Assembly (NCBI GenBank): GCA_016188115.1 | Contig: JACPIK010000002.1 | Location: 1,064,077 to 1,128,076 of the forward strand | Length of the DNA: 64,000 bases | From: Candidatus Woesearchaeota archaeon | GTDB taxonomy: Archaea > Nanobdellota > Nanobdellia > Woesearchaeales > GW2011-AR9 | Direction of reading: 5' to 3' | In this document: one piece after another, positions 3,630 through 36,195 of the stretch | Layout of the letters: each line of letters opens with the position of its first letter | How positions within the stretch are numbered: position 1 is the first letter of the stretch | Program-made: the position numbers and the translations under genes | Notes under the pieces: generated by a model | Told to the model about the DNA's origin: nothing | Databases searched by the model: none | Seen by the model: the letters and a program-made list of their open reading frames with translations, nothing else

Positions 3630-4310
3630 ATGAATCTTATCGAAGAATCCTATCATCGTTTGTTTCCAGATAAAGAATTCAGCTACAAAACAGAATTTGA
3701 ATACAACCGTCGCCTTAGTTCGTTTAATTCTAATATCAAACTCTATAACAACACTTTAAGTGTAGCCATGAATTTGCAGTGGAAGGATATTGATGATGAA
3801 ATCAAAATAGGGTTAATTCAACATTTATTACTCAAAGTGCTCAAGCAAAAAGCCACTACGTCAAATATTCATCTTTACCACCATTTCACTAAAAACATTC
3901 CTTCATTTACACCCAAAGAAGAAAGTCATCCAGTTCTTGCAGCATCTTTTGCACGGATGAATCAACAATTTTTTTCTGGAGCTATGGAACAACCCAATTT
4001 ACGCTGGGGCAGTGCGTCACGCCATCGCTTGGCGTATTATAACTTACACGATGACTCCATCACCGTCTCCACTCTCTTCCAAACTGCGCCACAACAGATT
4101 CTTGATTACTTGCTATATCACGAAATGTTGCACAAACACTTTCAATTTGAACATAAAAACGGACGTTCACATGCCCACACACCGGCGTTTCGTGCTGCGG
4201 AGGCCCAATACCCGAATCAAAAACAAGTTGACGTAGAACTCAATAACTTTGTTCGTCAAGCCTCTCGTCAAACCAAAAAAAGCTCATTTTGGTCTTTTTT
4301 GCAACAATAA
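3630..4310 (+). CDS. Metal-dependent hydrolase, YgjP/DUF45-like (SprT-like zincin)
   Basis: 'LLYHEMLHKHFQFEHKNGRSHAHTPAFRAAEAQYP' matches the DUF45 HExxH...H zinc motif region. Confidence 0.5.
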   Translation: MNLIEESYHRLFPDKEFSYKTEFEYNRRLSSFNSNIKLYNNTLSVAMNLQWKDIDDEIKIGLIQHLLLKVLKQKATTSNIHLYHHFTKNIPSFTPKEESHPVLAASFARMNQQFFSGAMEQPNLRWGSASRHRLAYYNLHDDSITVSTLFQTAPQQILDYLLYHEMLHKHFQFEHKNGRSHAHTPAFRAAEAQYPNQKQVDVELNNFVRQASRQTKKSSFWSFLQQ

Positions 4311-4376
4311 CCGTCAATTTAAATTCAATTGTAAGATCACTTTGAAGAAACATTTAAAAATAAACAGCAGTTTTTT

Positions 4377-4592
4377 ATGAATATGTCAACAAAGAGATTT
4401 CTCTCTCTCAACGCCATGGATAAAATCATGCGTGATGCGGGTGCTCCTCGAGTCAGCGATGACGCAAAAGAAGCATTGGCGCAAATTCTTGAAGAGAGAG
4501 GTCAACAAATCTCTGCTGAGGCAAAACGTCTTGCCGAACACGCTGGACGCAAAACTGTAACGGATAAAGATATACGCCTTGCAGTGAAATAG
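4377..4592 (+). CDS. Archaeal histone (HMf-like histone fold)
   Basis: 'IMRDAGAPRVSDDAKEALAQILEERGQQISAEAKRLAEHAGRKTVTDKDIRLAV' aligns with HMfB 'IKDAGAERVSDDARITLAKILEE...HAGRKTIKAEDIELAV'. Confidence 0.85.
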   Translation: MNMSTKRFLSLNAMDKIMRDAGAPRVSDDAKEALAQILEERGQQISAEAKRLAEHAGRKTVTDKDIRLAVK

Positions 4593-5003
4593 GTGGTCAC
4601 AATGGCTGAAGATTATGAAAAAAAACTGGTAAGCGTTGGAACGCTTAAAAAAGGAGACACCCTCATTATTGATAATGCTCCTTGTAAAATTACTGATACT
4701 GCAACGTCTCGTCCTGGAAAACACGGACACGCTAAAGTTAACTTAATGGCAGTAGGTCTGCTTGATGGCAAAAAACGTAACGCAGTTATGCCTGGTCACG
4801 ATAAAGTTGAAGTTCCTATCGTTGAGAAAAAAACTGCTCAAATCCTTTCCGTAGCTGGTAAAATTGCCAATGTTATGGATATGGAAACATACGAAACATT
4901 CGAGATGGAAATTCCTGAAGAATTAGACGGCCAAGTCAAAGAAGGCGTAGAAGTCCTTTACTGGTTGCTCATGGGAATGAAAATCATGAAACAAATTAAA
5001 TGA
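4593..5003 (+). CDS. Translation initiation factor aIF-5A (hypusine protein)
   Basis: 'TSRPGKHGHAKVNLMAVGL' hypusination loop; size and architecture typical. Confidence 0.9.
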   Translation: MVTMAEDYEKKLVSVGTLKKGDTLIIDNAPCKITDTATSRPGKHGHAKVNLMAVGLLDGKKRNAVMPGHDKVEVPIVEKKTAQILSVAGKIANVMDMETYETFEMEIPEELDGQVKEGVEVLYWLLMGMKIMKQIK

Positions 5004-33485: not shown

Positions 33486-33728
33486 TTATCTTTCACAATC
33501 ATCCACTGTCACTGCCGCATCCCTAAAGTATTCTTCACACTGTGTACTCATTGAATATCCACTCATAAAATGTCCGCAGGCGGCAGCAGATGGTCCTACC
33601 GCAACAGGACTTTGCGAAAATGCATTCACACATTCTATACAACAATCAGGATTTAAAGAAGGCTGAGTAGTACAAGATAGTGTTAATGAAGTAAGAAATA
33701 GAATAAAGAGTAATTTGTAATTCATCAT
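33486..33728 (-). CDS. Small secreted Cys-rich protein with lipobox-like signal
   Basis: 'LLFILFLTSLTLSC' then 7 more Cys in ~55 aa. Confidence 0.4.
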   Translation of the reverse strand: MMNYKLLFILFLTSLTLSCTTQPSLNPDCCIECVNAFSQSPVAVGPSAAACGHFMSGYSMSTQCEEYFRDAAVTVDDCER

Positions 33729-33814
33729 GTATTATCATATAACTTGCAATAAAAACCTTCCTACATATCCTGCTGTAGAGAAAGATTTAAAACCGGCTCC
33801 AAAACCTCAAACCC

Positions 33815-34825
33815 ATGGTGTATAGCTGGTTATCTCCCAAAGCCCAAACAAAAAAATCAAGTATTGAAGGAACTGGAACATTCTGTAAAACTAAAATCCA
33901 CAAAGATGAACTTATCTGTGTTTTTGGTGGTCATATCTTTGATACAAAAACGTGGAAAACACTTGATGAAAGTGTTGGTTCATTAGCACTTCCTCTCAAC
34001 GAAGAATTTGTTATTGCGCTTCATCATCTCTCTGAAGCCGGCGATGGTGATTTTGTCAATCATTCTTGCAATCCCAACGCTGGAATTCATGGGCAAATCT
34101 TTCTCGTCGCCATGCGCGAAATCGAAGCCGGCGAAGAAATTACCTTTGACTATGCAGTTGTTCTTGCTGACATTGCTCCACAAGATTGCGAGTTTGACTG
34201 TCATTGTGGTGCAATTAGTTGTCGTGGAAAAATCACAGCTCATGATTGGAAACGCGACGATTTACAACACAAATATGCCGGTTATTTCTCACATTATATT
34301 CAACAAAAGATCAATTACATTGAAGAAATGAAAAAGCGGGGAACTTCACCTCTTGTCGTTATCAAAGAATCAGCAATTCATAATAAAGGCGGCTACGCTG
34401 CCTGTGATATCGCCAAAGGCACAAAGATTATCCAATACGTTGGTGAGAAACTCACTAAAGAAGTCTCGAATCGACGTTGTGAAGAGCAAGTTGAATTAGC
34501 CAAGACCGACCCTTCCTGCGGCGAAGTTTACATCTTTGAACTTGATGACCAATATGACATTGACGGAAATGTTCCCTATAATACAGCCCGATTTCTCAAC
34601 CATTCCTGTGAACCAAACTGTCGCGATGTAAATGACAATGGGGAAATTTGGATCGTCGCCATTCGCGATATCAAAAAAGGAGAAGAATTACTGTATAATT
34701 ATCGCTTTGGACTTGATGACTTTCAAGATTTTCCTTGCCGCTGCGGTTCTCCACGCTGCTTTGGGTATATCTTAGACGAAGAAGATTGGGCAGATGGTCG
34801 CGATATCCTTTCTCAGAAAAAATGA
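33815..34825 (+). CDS. Tandem SET-domain protein (two SET plus post-SET Cys clusters)
   Basis: Domain 1 'NHSCNPNA...EEITFDY...CHCGAISC'; domain 2 'NHSCEPNC...GEELLYNY...CRCGSPRC'. Confidence 0.75.
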   Translation: MVYSWLSPKAQTKKSSIEGTGTFCKTKIHKDELICVFGGHIFDTKTWKTLDESVGSLALPLNEEFVIALHHLSEAGDGDFVNHSCNPNAGIHGQIFLVAMREIEAGEEITFDYAVVLADIAPQDCEFDCHCGAISCRGKITAHDWKRDDLQHKYAGYFSHYIQQKINYIEEMKKRGTSPLVVIKESAIHNKGGYAACDIAKGTKIIQYVGEKLTKEVSNRRCEEQVELAKTDPSCGEVYIFELDDQYDIDGNVPYNTARFLNHSCEPNCRDVNDNGEIWIVAIRDIKKGEELLYNYRFGLDDFQDFPCRCGSPRCFGYILDEEDWADGRDILSQKK

Positions 34826-35310
34826 ACCATCCACACGATCTCATTGAAATAAAAACATCCTCCATTCATCATTTTGGTATCTTTGCCAAAAAAGATATTG
34901 CTAAAGGCACGAAAATAATCGAATATATTGGCGAGAAAATTTCTAAGAAACAAAGTGCTCGACGATCTCAAAAAACCCTCAAAACATCGCAAAAAGATCC
35001 ATCGGCTGGTGCCGTGTATATGTTTGAATTAGACGATGAATGGGATATTGATGGCAATGTCGAAAACAATCCTGCACGTTTCTTAAACCACTCCTGTGAC
35101 CCCAATTGTGAGGTAGAAATTGAAGATGGGCATATCTGGATCTACGCCAAACGCGACATCAAAAAAGGTGAAGAGCTATTATATAATTATGGGTACGATC
35201 TAGAATTTTATCAAGATCACCCTTGCAAATGCAATTCTAAACGGTGTGTAGGCTATATCGTGCATGAGGACCACTGGGAAAAATTAAAAGAGTTATTACA
35301 GAAAAACTAG
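34822..35310 (+). CDS. SET-domain protein (paralog of the C-terminal half of the upstream gene)
   Basis: ATGA overlap with the upstream stop; 'FLNHSCDPNC...GEELLYNY...CKCNSKRC'; long near-identical stretches to SET domain 2 of 33815..34825. Confidence 0.75.
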   Translation: MNHPHDLIEIKTSSIHHFGIFAKKDIAKGTKIIEYIGEKISKKQSARRSQKTLKTSQKDPSAGAVYMFELDDEWDIDGNVENNPARFLNHSCDPNCEVEIEDGHIWIYAKRDIKKGEELLYNYGYDLEFYQDHPCKCNSKRCVGYIVHEDHWEKLKELLQKN

Positions 35311-35311
35311 T

Positions 35312-35776
35312 TCAAACCAATTCTCGTCGTATCAATTCTGGCAATATCTTATTTTTAATAATGGGTGAAAGAATCGTCACATTATCGTCTCTTCCAAACC
35401 ATCGTTGATCTTGAATCTCGCAAGATGGTTTTGGTTCACCTACAATCTCTCCAATATACACTTCAATCGCCACAATAGTATTTGCTTCATTCGCAGCAGC
35501 ATCCTCTACATGACACAAAAAAGACAAAGAAGACGTAACAACATCGCAATCATGTTCCTCTTTAATCTCGCGTACTAAACATTCTTCTGGGGTTTCATGA
35601 GGTGTTGGCTTGCCGCCAGGAAGAAGAAAAAGAGACGTATTTTTCTTCCTATTTACTAAGAATCTTTTATCACGAAGAATAATCAGACCATATTTGTGGA
35701 TCGTGTTCATTGTTTTTTTAGAAGGAAGATTTTTTATAAAGATATATGGTTGTTTTTTCCATGCACAACGCAGCAA
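35312..35776 (-). CDS. Nudix hydrolase
   Basis: Nudix box 'GGKPTPHETPEECLVREIKEEHD'. Confidence 0.8.
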   Translation of the reverse strand: MLRCAWKKQPYIFIKNLPSKKTMNTIHKYGLIILRDKRFLVNRKKNTSLFLLPGGKPTPHETPEECLVREIKEEHDCDVVTSSLSFLCHVEDAAANEANTIVAIEVYIGEIVGEPKPSCEIQDQRWFGRDDNVTILSPIIKNKILPELIRRELV

Positions 35777-36195
35777 TTCTCGATTTTAGTCGGACATTAT
35801 ACGATCCTGACAATGGATGTCTCATTGAGGGAGCAAAAGAGCTTCTTAACGCGTTACAACATAAAAAATATCAAATGATCCTAGTAAGCCGCACCAAAGA
35901 CTTGCAGCATAAACATCTTGAACACCTAGGAATTCGCCATTTCTTTTCCGAAATTATCATCACCACGACAAAAGATGAAAGCATGTTTAGTGCGATTGCC
36001 AACGATGCCAACATTAATCCTGCACAGGTTCTTGTGATCGGAGATAAAGCGCAAAGTGAAATTATCGCGGGTAAGAAAGCAGGCATGAAAACAATTTGGT
36101 TTCGATCCGGAAAGTATGCTCACGAGATACCTTTAGAAGGTATGGGACCTGATGTAATGGTCGATAAATTAATTGACATAATAAAGTATATTTAA
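35746..36195 (+). CDS. HAD-superfamily hydrolase (small, with variant motif I)
   Basis: 'AILDFSRTL' (DxSxT variant), 'VLVIGDKAQSEIIAGKKAGMKTIWF' motif IV. Confidence 0.6.
   Translation: MVVFSMHNAAILDFSRTLYDPDNGCLIEGAKELLNALQHKKYQMILVSRTKDLQHKHLEHLGIRHFFSEIIITTTKDESMFSAIANDANINPAQVLVIGDKAQSEIIAGKKAGMKTIWFRSGKYAHEIPLEGMGPDVMVDKLIDIIKYI

What the first reader, a model, noticed from the sequence alone, without database searches (positions are those of the whole stretch)
33815..35310. Three SET (lysine methyltransferase) domains in two adjacent genes, arising by partial duplication, in a histone-encoding archaeon
Gene 1 carries two SET plus post-SET modules. Gene 2 overlaps by ATGA and is a near-copy of gene 1's second module (long identical runs such as 'IAKGTKII.Y.GEK', 'RFLNHSC.PNC', 'RDIKKGEELLYNY', and the Cys-x-Cys-x4-Cys post-SET). 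Archaeal SET enzymes are uncommon and are known to methylate chromatin proteins. The same window encodes a histone-fold protein (4377-4592), which makes chromatin-protein lysine methylation a plausible function. The duplication architecture suggests recent neofunctionalisation.
Basis: partly seen in the sequence, partly recalled or inferred. Interest (0 to 1): 0.55.

Follow-up and report, generated by a model that had tools for sequence, protein, structure and literature searches.

The report
Three SET methyltransferase modules, one fused
A Woesearchaeota archaeon carries three intact SET lysine-methyltransferase modules in two overlapping genes, but they come from an old gene pair plus a fusion with a different SET family, not a recent duplication, so this is a modest variation on a known enzyme type.

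Summary
Gene 1 (33815-34825, 336 aa) has two SET+post-SET modules. Gene 2 (34822-35310, 162 aa) has one and overlaps gene 1 by ATGA. All three keep NHSC, the catalytic Tyr and the CxCx4C zinc motif. A histone-fold gene lies at 4377-4592.

The evolutionary reading is largely wrong. Module 1 belongs to a separate stand-alone family of about 170 aa ("type A"). Module 2 ("B1") and gene 2 ("B2") are old paralogues of a large "type B" family:
- They share 56% of amino acids and 60% of nucleotides, and synonymous sites are saturated.
- A syntenic relative (L023/L024) has separate B1 and B2 genes and no type A gene. Orthologues are 70-71% identical; paralogues are 50-56%.
- Over 120 foreign protein clusters score closer to gene 2 than module 2 does.

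So the feature specific to this genome is an end-to-start fusion of a complete type A protein onto B1's start codon (Met172). I found no other canonical A+B protein among the best-scoring hits of two very large protein collections. Di-SET proteins as such are common in prokaryotes.

The closest solved relatives are KMT2/MLL SET domains. The substrate is unknown, and chromatin proteins are only a guess from precedent. Type A has Phe at the Phe/Tyr switch and type B has Tyr, which hints at different methylation degrees. Interest is modest.

The parts
33786..33792 (+). TTTAAAA, a possible archaeal TATA-like element about 26 nt upstream of the gene 1 ATG. This would imply a leaderless transcript.
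   Evidence: Read by eye from the sequence. L023 has an ATATAAA at a similar distance upstream of its B1 gene. Not tested; low confidence.
33815..34327 (+). Gene 1, residues 1-171: the type A SET+post-SET module with a C-terminal helical tail (DWKRDDLQHKYAGYFSHYIQQKINYIEE). Key residues: G19-T-G21, F37, N82-H-S-C85, F111 (switch), Y113, C129/C131/C136.
   Evidence: Pfam SET. It is 45-59% identical over its full length to stand-alone proteins of about 170 aa. The alignment shows it is a complete type A protein that ends where the stand-alone proteins end. Best PDB hit is KMT2A, E 1.9e-13.
34328..34825 (+). Gene 1, residues 172-336 plus stop: the type B1 SET+post-SET module. Met172 (ATG at 34328) corresponds to the start codon of the stand-alone B1 gene in relatives. 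Key residues: Y208, N262-H-S-C265, Y294 (switch), Y296, C308/C310/C315.
   Evidence: It is 70% identical to the stand-alone L023 B1 gene (173 aa) and 72% to P0003. The B1 clade has 100% bootstrap support.
34320..34334 (+). Fusion junction TTGAAGAAATGAAAA. The type A tail (…NYIEE) runs in frame straight into the B1 start codon.
   Evidence: Sequence. Inference: removing a single A (GAAATGA to GAATGA) would give an IEE-stop with an ATGA overlap, the same kind of junction as between gene 1 and gene 2.
34822..35310 (+). Gene 2: the type B2 SET+post-SET protein, 162 aa. Key residues: Y35, N89-H-S-C92, Y121 (switch), Y123, C135/C137/C142.
   Evidence: Pfam SET, E 2.2e-29. It has 1632 homologues, more than 120 of them at 56-71% identity. 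The syntenic orthologue P0229/L023_B2 is 71% identical. Best PDB hit is KMT2C, E 6.7e-25.
34822..34825 (+). ATGA overlap between the gene 1 stop and the gene 2 start. This suggests co-transcription and translational coupling.
   Evidence: Sequence.
4377..4592 (+). Archaeal histone-fold protein, 71 aa, with 7 Lys. It is a candidate substrate only and lies 29 kb away.
   Evidence: PF00808 CBFD_NFYB_HMF, E 1.3e-16. No evidence links it to the SET genes.

Best explanation
The locus encodes three SAM-dependent SET-domain protein-lysine methyltransferase modules from two distinct prokaryotic SET subfamilies.

Shown:
- Gene 2 (B2) and the C-terminal half of gene 1 (B1) are an old paralogue pair of the widespread 'type B' stand-alone SET family. 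The pair is kept as adjacent genes in related Woesearchaeota.
- The N-terminal half of gene 1 is a complete member of a different stand-alone family, 'type A'.
- In this genome only, type A is joined in frame, end to start, onto B1's original start codon (Met172).
- All three modules keep the SAM-binding/pseudoknot NHSC motif, the catalytic Tyr and the post-SET zinc cysteines, so all are expected to be active.

Inferred:
- The two genes are co-transcribed and translationally coupled through the ATGA overlap.
- The modules methylate lysines of abundant basic proteins. By precedent (Gö1-SET on MC1-alpha, chlamydial SET on Hc1) these would be nucleoid or chromatin proteins such as the histone, but this is not shown.
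- Type A has Phe at both channel positions that are Tyr in type B (F37/F111 against Y208/Y294 and Y35/Y121). By the established Phe/Tyr-switch rule, type A should reach higher methylation states (tri-methylation) and type B should stop at mono- or di-methylation. The fusion may therefore couple modules of different product or site specificity on one polypeptide.
For: Domain identity:
- Pfam SET in all three modules, with motifs intact.
- The AF2 model has mean pLDDT 80.7. The best Foldseek hits are MLL3, MLL1, MLL4 and yeast Set1 SET domains, TM 0.74-0.81 normalised to the target.
- The best PDB sequence hits are KMT2A and KMT2C.

Two subfamilies:
- Among the first two searches' hits, 171 single-domain proteins match module 1 best and 46 match module 2 or gene 2 best.
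- Module 1 aligns end to end with stand-alone proteins of about 170 aa.

Old B1/B2 pair:
- The syntenic loci L023/L024 carry aminotransferase, a 152-aa gene, an 85-aa gene, B1 (173 aa), B2 (163 aa), NUDIX, YdjM, a 196-aa gene and RPA, with no type A gene.
- Orthologues are 70-72% identical and paralogues 50-56%.
- L002 also has a second type B gene 20 bp after its B1 gene.
- Synonymous sites are saturated.

Uniqueness of A+B:
- In the 5.8-billion-protein search, the only full-length hits other than the protein itself are A+A or B+B.
- In the 1.84-billion-representative search, the only 'AB' call (P0359) has a degenerate second domain (GHSC, …TYNC) with a type-A-like tail.

Switch residues:
- Alignments to MLL1 and MLL3 place F37/F111 (type A) and Y35/Y121 (B2) at the MLL Tyr positions.
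- Across each family, type A singles have F in 156 of 165 and type B singles have Y in 137 of 151.
- Of 21 di-SET proteins with both motifs readable, 17 combine different switch residues.

Precedent for substrates: PMC3980110.
Against: - No substrate evidence of any kind. Gene neighbourhoods of homologues are not conserved and the histone gene is 29 kb away.
- Type B is common in bacteria (Omnitrophica, Verrucomicrobiota). Most bacteria are known to lack histones, so the family is not histone-dedicated.
- In the one characterised archaeal case, the histone-like protein was not methylated.
- AF2 gives pTM 0.55, so it provides no support for a fixed arrangement of the two modules.
- The first Gly of the N-terminal GxG motif is replaced in B1 (N) and B2 (H). 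Their orthologues carry the same replacements.
- The Phe/Tyr-switch prediction is extrapolated from eukaryotic enzymes.
- The di-SET sequences counted are related to each other, so they are not independent.
Confidence: 0.6

Rival explanations
1. One reading: gene 2 is a recent near-copy of gene 1's second module, produced by partial tandem duplication, and is now undergoing neofunctionalisation.
For: Module 2 and gene 2 are adjacent and are both type B, with 56% identity over 155 aa. An in-situ tandem duplication at some remote time remains possible.
Against: - Each has a closer orthologue in other genomes, at 70-72%.
- More than 120 foreign protein clusters outscore module 2 against gene 2, and 132 of 168 sequences are closer in the tree.
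- Synonymous sites are saturated: 38 identical codons against 40 expected.
- The B1-B2 pair already exists as two whole genes in L023/L024 and L002.
Confidence: 0.05
2. The fusion is a sequencing or assembly artefact. The real genome has three separate genes (A, B1, B2), with A ending IEE-TGA and overlapping B1's ATG. One spurious extra A in GAAGAAATGA creates the apparent 336-aa ORF.
For: Removing one A at the junction recreates exactly the ATGA overlap seen between gene 1 and gene 2. The type A homology ends just at that point. No other genome shows the fusion.
Against: - The identical 336-aa product is called on two assemblies, the NCBI 1.47 Mb contig and a Logan contig from SRR12113420, with 0 mismatches over 21 kb.
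- The A-run is only three bases long.
- The two assemblies may derive from the same reads, so this is not fully independent support.
Confidence: 0.1
3. One or more modules, most likely type A, methylate a small molecule rather than a protein lysine. The precedent is the SET-domain enzyme BurB, which S-methylates free methionine.
For: Module 1 hits BurB (9l4t) at E 3e-8. BurB shows that a SET fold can act on a small molecule (PMC12542666). Type A has Phe instead of Tyr at two channel positions.
Against: - The BurB match (36.8 bits, residues 70-145 only) is weaker than the match to KMT2A (53.7 bits, residues 13-138).
- BurB is not among the 60 listed hits for gene 2.
- There are no DMSP or bur pathway genes nearby.
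- The catalytic Tyr and post-SET motif are as in lysine methyltransferases.
Confidence: 0.08
4. The SET proteins are directed at a host or partner cell. Woesearchaeota and other DPANN archaea are thought to be episymbionts, so the enzymes could methylate host chromatin proteins, as Legionella RomA/LegAS4 and Chlamydia NUE do.
For: - Named homologues come disproportionately from ultra-small or predatory lineages: Woese-, Pace- and Nanoarchaeota, Moranbacteria, Minisyncoccia, Peribacteraceae, Omnitrophica and Bdellovibrionales.
- The only NCBIfam hit is the LegAS4 effector model, far below its cutoff.
- Bacterial SET effectors are an established precedent.
Against: - By eye, the N-termini show no signal peptide or secretion motif.
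- Type A is abundant in Chloroflexi and Anaerolineae MAGs, which are not known symbionts.
- The NCBIfam match only reflects the shared SET domain.
- The taxonomic skew may simply reflect which metagenomes have been sampled.
Confidence: 0.07
5. The modules are protein lysine methyltransferases, but their substrates are non-chromatin proteins such as ribosomal proteins, translation factors or metabolic enzymes.
For: - The type B family is widespread in bacteria, most of which are known to lack histones.
- Type B is repeatedly fused or adjacent to flavodoxin-like proteins.
- There is no conserved linkage to chromatin genes.
- Eukaryotic SET enzymes that methylate ribosomal proteins or Rubisco are established knowledge.
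Against: The only characterised substrates of prokaryotic SET enzymes within their own cells are nucleoid proteins: MC1-alpha and, from general knowledge, chlamydial Hc1.
Confidence: 0.2

Closest known systems
Eukaryotic KMT2 / Trithorax-SET1 family SET+post-SET catalytic domains (MLL1-4, yeast Set1)
   Same: They are the best sequence matches in the PDB for all modules: gene 2 to KMT2C at E 6.7e-25 and module 1 to KMT2A at E 1.9e-13. They are also the best structural matches for the AF2 model, TM 0.74-0.81. NHSC, ELxYDY and the CxCx4C post-SET motif are the same. Type B shares the Tyr at the Phe/Tyr switch.
   Different: The proteins here are bare SET+post-SET units of 160-170 aa, with no room for N-SET or Win motifs or for other domains. 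The organism has no histone H3. Type A has Phe at the switch and a family-specific C-terminal helix (DWKxxxLQxKYxGYFxxYxQxKI).
Gö1-SET of Methanosarcina mazei, the only biochemically characterised archaeal SET enzyme
   Same: It is a small stand-alone archaeal SET protein that methylates a chromatin protein, MC1-alpha (Lys37), in vitro (PMC3980110).
   Different: Gö1-SET did not methylate the histone-like protein. It is a single domain, not a fused or paired arrangement.
Prokaryotic di-SET proteins (A+A in Rhodocyclaceae and other bacteria, B+B such as P0004). These were seen only in databases, and I found no paper describing them.
   Same: They have two SET+post-SET modules on one polypeptide of about 350 aa with a short linker. 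Most combine different switch residues.
   Different: They are homotypic (A+A or B+B). The window protein is heterotypic (A+B1) and is followed by a third module encoded separately.
vSET (PBCV-1) side-by-side homodimer and the G9a-GLP SET heterodimer
   Same: They are precedents for SET domains working in pairs (bioRxiv 10.1101/264291; G9a-GLP, listed). Fusion and adjacency here could reflect similar pairing.
   Different: There is no evidence of module-module contact here: AF2 pTM is 0.55. vSET lacks a post-SET motif (general knowledge, not tested).
BurB / MSMT SET-domain methionine S-methyltransferases
   Same: It is a small bacterial SET protein of 180 aa with weak similarity to module 1, E 3e-8.
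   Different: The similarity is weaker than to KMT2 and covers only the C-terminal half. There is no pathway context.

Membership tests
SET-domain protein lysine methyltransferases (Pfam PF00856, class V methyltransferases) | Significant match to the SET profile above the curated threshold | tested here: met
   Gene 1 scores 134.6 bits with two stretches and gene 2 scores 102.4 bits, against a cutoff of 22.4.
SET-domain protein lysine methyltransferases (Pfam PF00856, class V methyltransferases) | NHSC motif (SAM binding, pseudoknot) | tested here: met
   N82-C85, N262-C265 and N89-C92. N, H and C of this motif are invariant columns across 90 aligned homologues; the Ser column is conserved in at least 90% of them.
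SET-domain protein lysine methyltransferases (Pfam PF00856, class V methyltransferases) | Catalytic Tyr at the end of the ELxF/YDY motif | tested here: met
   GEEITFDY113, GEELLYNY296 and GEELLYNY123. They align to the MLL1/MLL3 motif.
SET-domain protein lysine methyltransferases (Pfam PF00856, class V methyltransferases) | Post-SET CxCx4C zinc cluster | tested here: met
   CHCGAISC at 129, CRCGSPRC at 308 and CKCNSKRC at 135.
SET-domain protein lysine methyltransferases (Pfam PF00856, class V methyltransferases) | SET fold | tested here: met
   AF2 mean pLDDT 80.7. There are 402 PDB matches at E<=0.001, and the listed top 50 are all SET-domain lysine methyltransferases (KMT2, NSD, ASH1L, SETD2, EZH2).
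SET-domain protein lysine methyltransferases (Pfam PF00856, class V methyltransferases) | SAM-dependent methylation of protein lysine | not testable with these tools
   This needs an enzyme assay.
KMT2 / Trithorax-SET1 subfamily | Accessory N-SET or Win elements, large multidomain context and dependence on the WRAD complex | tested here: not met
   SET covers residues 18-124 of the 162-aa gene 2. Gene 1 is nothing but two SET+post-SET units. There is no room for accessory elements.
KMT2 / Trithorax-SET1 subfamily | Histone H3 Lys4 as substrate | not testable with these tools
   The only histone seen is a 71-aa archaeal histone-fold protein.
Gö1-SET-type archaeal MC1 methyltransferases | Orthology to M. 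mazei Gö1-SET and presence of MC1 in the genome | not tested
   No Gö1-SET sequence is available here. The only Methanosarcinales relative seen (L011) is a 421-aa type-A-like multidomain protein. MC1 was not searched for outside the window.
BurB/MSMT methionine S-methyltransferase SET proteins | Closer to BurB than to lysine methyltransferases, and linked to DMSP/bur pathway genes | tested here: not met
   BurB scores 36.8 bits against 53.7 bits for KMT2A with module 1. It is absent from the 60 listed hits for gene 2. The neighbours are NUDIX, HAD, YdjM and RPA.
   The paralogues are 56% identical, against 70-72% for orthologues. In the tree, 132 of 168 sequences are closer to gene 2 than module 2 is.
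   38 of 85 codons are identical, against 40 expected by chance. Third-position identity is 39.5%.
Obligate SET-SET dimers (vSET-like or G9a-GLP-like) | Defined contact between the SET modules | tested here: inconclusive
   AF2 pTM is 0.55 from a 9-sequence alignment. The domains are confident but their relative position is not.

The most novel reading that the evidence does not exclude
The A::B1 fusion and B2 together form a three-headed lysine-methylation 'writer'. The modules would divide the work by methylation degree (Phe-switch type A finishing what the Tyr-switch type B modules start) or by site, acting on the archaeal histone or another nucleoid protein. This would be a multi-SET chromatin-marking system in a DPANN archaeon. 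The preference of prokaryotic di-SET proteins for mixed switch residues (17 of 21) would then reflect a general design principle.
Probability: 0.12. Interest if true: 0.6.

Novelty: new variant of a known kind. Interest (0 to 1): 0.3.

Why it matters
If active on chromatin proteins, these enzymes would add to the very thin evidence (one characterised enzyme, Gö1-SET) that archaea use SET-type lysine methylation on their nucleoid proteins. A recent survey found no SET orthologues in its representative Asgard archaea, although their histone tails are methylated (bioRxiv 10.64898/2026.07.02.735847).

The locus also offers a natural experiment. The same B1 enzyme exists free in close relatives and fused to a type A module here, so the effect of tethering two SET modules with different Phe/Tyr-switch residues could be measured directly.

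As it stands, the genes are already annotated as SET-domain lysine methyltransferases. The main value of this work is correcting the evolutionary story.

Tried and rejected
- **GTDB species genomes, searched with gene 1.** There was no close relative and no A+B fusion. The hits were single type A or A-like genes in Chloroflexi, Acidobacteriota, Methanosarcinales and Nanoarchaeota.
- **JGI metagenome contigs, searched with module 2.** The 37 loci found were at most 53% identical and all carried a single SET gene, so they added nothing on the fusion.
- **One MAFFT alignment of gene 1 with type A and type B singles (A1).** All singles piled onto the second module, which made it unusable for structure prediction. 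I used a 9-sequence di-SET alignment instead (A2).
- **AF2 for a pseudo-dimer.** pTM was 0.55, which is inconclusive.
- **Neighbourhoods of homologues.** I found no conserved partner apart from flavodoxin in one type B subclade, and the window has no flavodoxin.
- **Cluster-member names for the taxonomy of type A.** Almost none were named.
- **Composition test for recent transfer of module A.** GC3 is 0.287, within the window's range (mean 0.32, sd 0.05), so there is no signal.
- **Bacterial-type promoter/terminator scan.** It found no more than shuffled sequence does, and it is not appropriate for an archaeon.
- **tRNA and Rfam scans of the window.** They found nothing.
- **Literature searches.** I searched for SET domains in DPANN/Woesearchaeota and for prokaryotic tandem SET proteins. 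Nothing in the held library describes them.
Full report
**What is there**

The region holds two same-strand ORFs. Gene 1 is 33815..34825 (336 aa). Gene 2 is best read from the ATG at 34822, giving 34822..35310 (162 aa), so that its start overlaps the gene 1 stop as ATGA.

Pfam SET matches gene 1 twice (E 2.1e-39) and gene 2 once (E 2.2e-29). All three modules carry NHSC, GEExx[F/Y][D/N]Y and a CxCx4C post-SET motif.

An AlphaFold2 model of gene 1 has mean pLDDT 80.7. Its best structural matches are the SET domains of MLL3, MLL1, MLL4 and yeast Set1, with TM 0.74-0.81 normalised to the target. The best PDB sequence hits are KMT2C for gene 2 (E 6.7e-25) and KMT2A for module 1 (E 1.9e-13).

The identical proteins are on record as 'SET domain-containing protein-lysine N-methyltransferase [Candidatus Woesearchaeota archaeon]' on a 1.47 Mb contig. 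The ORF at 4377..4592 is a 71-aa archaeal histone (PF00808, E 1.3e-16).

**Two subfamilies, not one duplicated module**

Module 1 (residues 1-171) is only about 30% identical to module 2 and to gene 2. A search with module 1 alone returns 264 proteins. Most are stand-alone, 168-180 aa long, and 40-59% identical over their whole length.

These proteins share several features with module 1:
- the YSWL-like N-terminus;
- an FGG motif;
- NHSCNPNAG;
- GEEITFDYA;
- a distinctive tail after the post-SET motif, DWKxxxLQxKYxGYFxxYxQxKI.

Module 1 ends where they end. I call this family type A.

Module 2 and gene 2 belong to a second family, type B. It is also mostly stand-alone, at about 160-190 aa. 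Gene 2 alone has 1632 homologues at E<=0.001. The sources name them from Woese-, Pace- and Nanoarchaeota, Omnitrophica and Verrucomicrobiota. Among the proteins from the first two searches, 171 single-domain proteins match module 1 best and 46 match type B best.

**The B1/B2 pair is old**

Module 2 (B1) and gene 2 (B2) are 56% identical in protein and 60% in codon-aligned DNA. Third positions are 39.5% identical. At residues identical in both, 38 of 85 codons are the same, against 40 expected from codon usage, so synonymous sites are saturated.

The best 120 hits of gene 2 all score at least 209 bits. Module 2 scores 187 bits against gene 2 and is not among them.

Decisively, the contigs L023 and L024 are syntenic with the window. 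They carry an aminotransferase, a 152-aa gene, a small minus-strand gene, two SET genes, NUDIX, YdjM, a 196-aa gene and RPA. Their two SET genes are separate: B1 of 173 aa and B2 of 163 aa.

| Comparison | Identity |
|---|---|
| Module 2 vs L023_B1 (orthologues) | 70% |
| Gene 2 vs L023_B2 (orthologues) | 71% |
| B1-type vs B2-type (paralogues) | 50-56% |

A third relative, L002, has a stand-alone B1 (P0003, 72% to module 2). It is followed 20 bp later by the start of another type B gene.

In neighbour-joining trees the B1 clade has 100% bootstrap support and the B2 clade 88%. No supported node joins them. In that tree, 132 of 168 sequences are closer to gene 2 than module 2 is. 'Near-copy' and 'recent neofunctionalisation' are therefore not supported.

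**What is specific to this genome: a fusion**

L023 and L024 have no type A gene upstream of B1. In both genomes the upstream neighbour is the small minus-strand gene.

In the window, the type A tail …QQKINYIEE runs directly into Met172-KKRGTSPLVVIKES. This matches the N-terminus of free B1, MKNELVVVKNS. So a whole type A protein is joined end to start onto the B1 start codon.

The junction reads GAAGAAATGAAAAAG. One A fewer would give …IEE-TGA overlapping ATG, the same ATGA junction seen between gene 1 and gene 2. A one-base insertion in an ancestral A-B1-B2 operon is thus a simple route to the fusion. This is my inference, since no relative with such an operon was found.

For the same reason a homopolymer error has to be considered. 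Against it, a Logan assembly of SRR12113420 gives the same 336-aa product and is identical to the window over 21 kb, and the run is only three bases long. Module A's GC3 (0.287) lies within the window's range, so there is no compositional sign of recent transfer.

**How unusual is the architecture?**

- In the 5.8-billion-protein search, the only full-length matches other than the protein itself are A+A proteins (for example from a Rhodocyclaceae bacterium) or the B+B protein P0004.
- In the exhaustive search of 1.84 billion representatives, 25 of the best 150 are A+A.
- Seven of the 150 have a divergent N-terminal SET followed by type A.
- Two are giant proteins with nine SET stretches each.
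- The single 'AB' call, P0359, has a degenerate second domain (GHSC, …TYNC) with a type-A-like tail.
- Among 63 fetched loci, only the window's own contig (L001) and L023/L024 hold more than one SET gene.

Tandem SET proteins are thus common in prokaryotes, although I found no paper describing them. A fusion of type A to a canonical type B, followed by a third module, was seen only here.

**Mechanism**

*Shown.* All three modules keep the residues needed for SAM binding and methyl transfer.

*Inferred: expression.* The ATGA overlap, and a TATA-like TTTAAAA about 26 nt before the gene 1 ATG, suggest one leaderless transcript with coupled translation.

*Inferred: substrate.* Nothing in the sequence identifies the substrate. 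The neighbourhoods of homologues differ from one another. The histone gene is 29 kb away. Type B is frequent in bacteria, most of which lack histones.

The known precedents for prokaryotic SET enzymes acting in their own cell are nucleoid proteins. [quoted passage not shown] Chromatin proteins are therefore my leading guess, at roughly one in three.

*Inferred: product specificity.* In the alignments to MLL1 and MLL3, type A has Phe (F37, F111) where type B has Tyr (Y208/Y294 in B1, Y35/Y121 in B2). The second of these positions is the classical Phe/Tyr switch that sets the methylation degree. This rule is established knowledge for DIM-5, SET7/9 and MLL1.

The difference holds across each family. 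Type A singles have F in 156 of 165, and type B singles have Y in 137 of 151. Of 21 di-SET proteins with both motifs readable, 17 combine different residues at this position. These sequences are related to one another, so they do not count as independent events.

This suggests that fused SET modules divide labour by methylation state or by site. AF2 gives no confident inter-module geometry (pTM 0.55), so a vSET-like or G9a-GLP-like pairing is neither supported nor excluded.

**Rivals**

- **BurB-like small-molecule methyltransferase.** This cannot be excluded for type A, since BurB matches at E 3e-8. The match is weaker and shorter than the match to KMT2A, and there is no pathway context.
- **Host-directed effector.** The skew of named homologues towards DPANN, CPR, Omnitrophica and Bdellovibrionales suggests this. 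I saw no secretion signal by eye.
- **Assembly artefact at the junction.** This remains possible at about one in ten.

**Verdict**

The 'partial, recent duplication' interpretation is wrong. The genes are already annotated as SET lysine methyltransferases.

The new points are these:
- the split into two subfamilies;
- the ancient B1/B2 pair;
- the A::B1 fusion found only in this genome;
- the Phe/Tyr-switch contrast between the two families.

This is a new variant of a known kind and of modest interest.

Noticed in passing
L025 and L026, 4001-4510 and 4627-5091; proteins P0015, P0016, P0021, P0029, P0032, P0033, P0036, P0038: Type B SET is repeatedly associated with a flavodoxin-like domain (PF12682/PF12724/PF12641). 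The two are fused in about eight protein clusters of roughly 320 aa, one of which NCBI names 'flavodoxin [Woesearchaeota]'. They are adjacent genes in Pacearchaeota contigs. This fusion-plus-adjacency pattern hints at a functional link, and the meaning is unknown. The window has no flavodoxin homologue.
   Followed up: partly
Proteins P0364 (1449 aa) and P0415 (1479 aa): These are giant proteins with nine SET-domain stretches each, found among the best hits of the representative search. Their origin and function are unknown.
   Followed up: no
Proteins P0002, P0005, P0006, P0009, P0023 and about 25 further representative clusters: Bacterial A+A di-SET proteins of about 350 aa, one from a Rhodocyclaceae bacterium, are common. 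They usually pair a Tyr-switch module with a Phe, Ile or Leu-switch module (17 of 21 readable cases). I found no paper in the held library describing them.
   Followed up: partly
window 3630-5003: A SprT-like metalloprotease gene (3630-4310), the histone gene (4377-4592) and an aIF5A gene (4593-5003) lie head to tail. The histone stop directly abuts the aIF5A start.
   Followed up: no
L011 5602-6867: A Methanosarcinales MAG encodes a 421-aa protein with a type-A-like SET domain flanked by unannotated N- and C-terminal regions. A Nanoarchaeota MAG (L015 5992-6468) has a 158-aa variant with a different tail (…KYIELGIIPEYI).
   Followed up: no
window 33486-33728 (-) and L023 1858-2115 (-): A small Cys-rich protein of 80-85 aa, with a hydrophobic N-terminus ending …LSC (lipoprotein-like by eye), is the conserved upstream neighbour of the SET genes in both genomes. 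It has no Pfam match.
   Followed up: no
window 1-64000: There is no tRNA gene and no Rfam family at gathering threshold anywhere in the 64 kb. Cumulative GC skew falls steadily across the window.
   Followed up: no
window 35746-36195: A HAD-family hydrolase gene sits between NUDIX and YdjM in the window but is absent from the syntenic relatives L023 and L024. It is a second difference at this locus specific to this genome.
   Followed up: no
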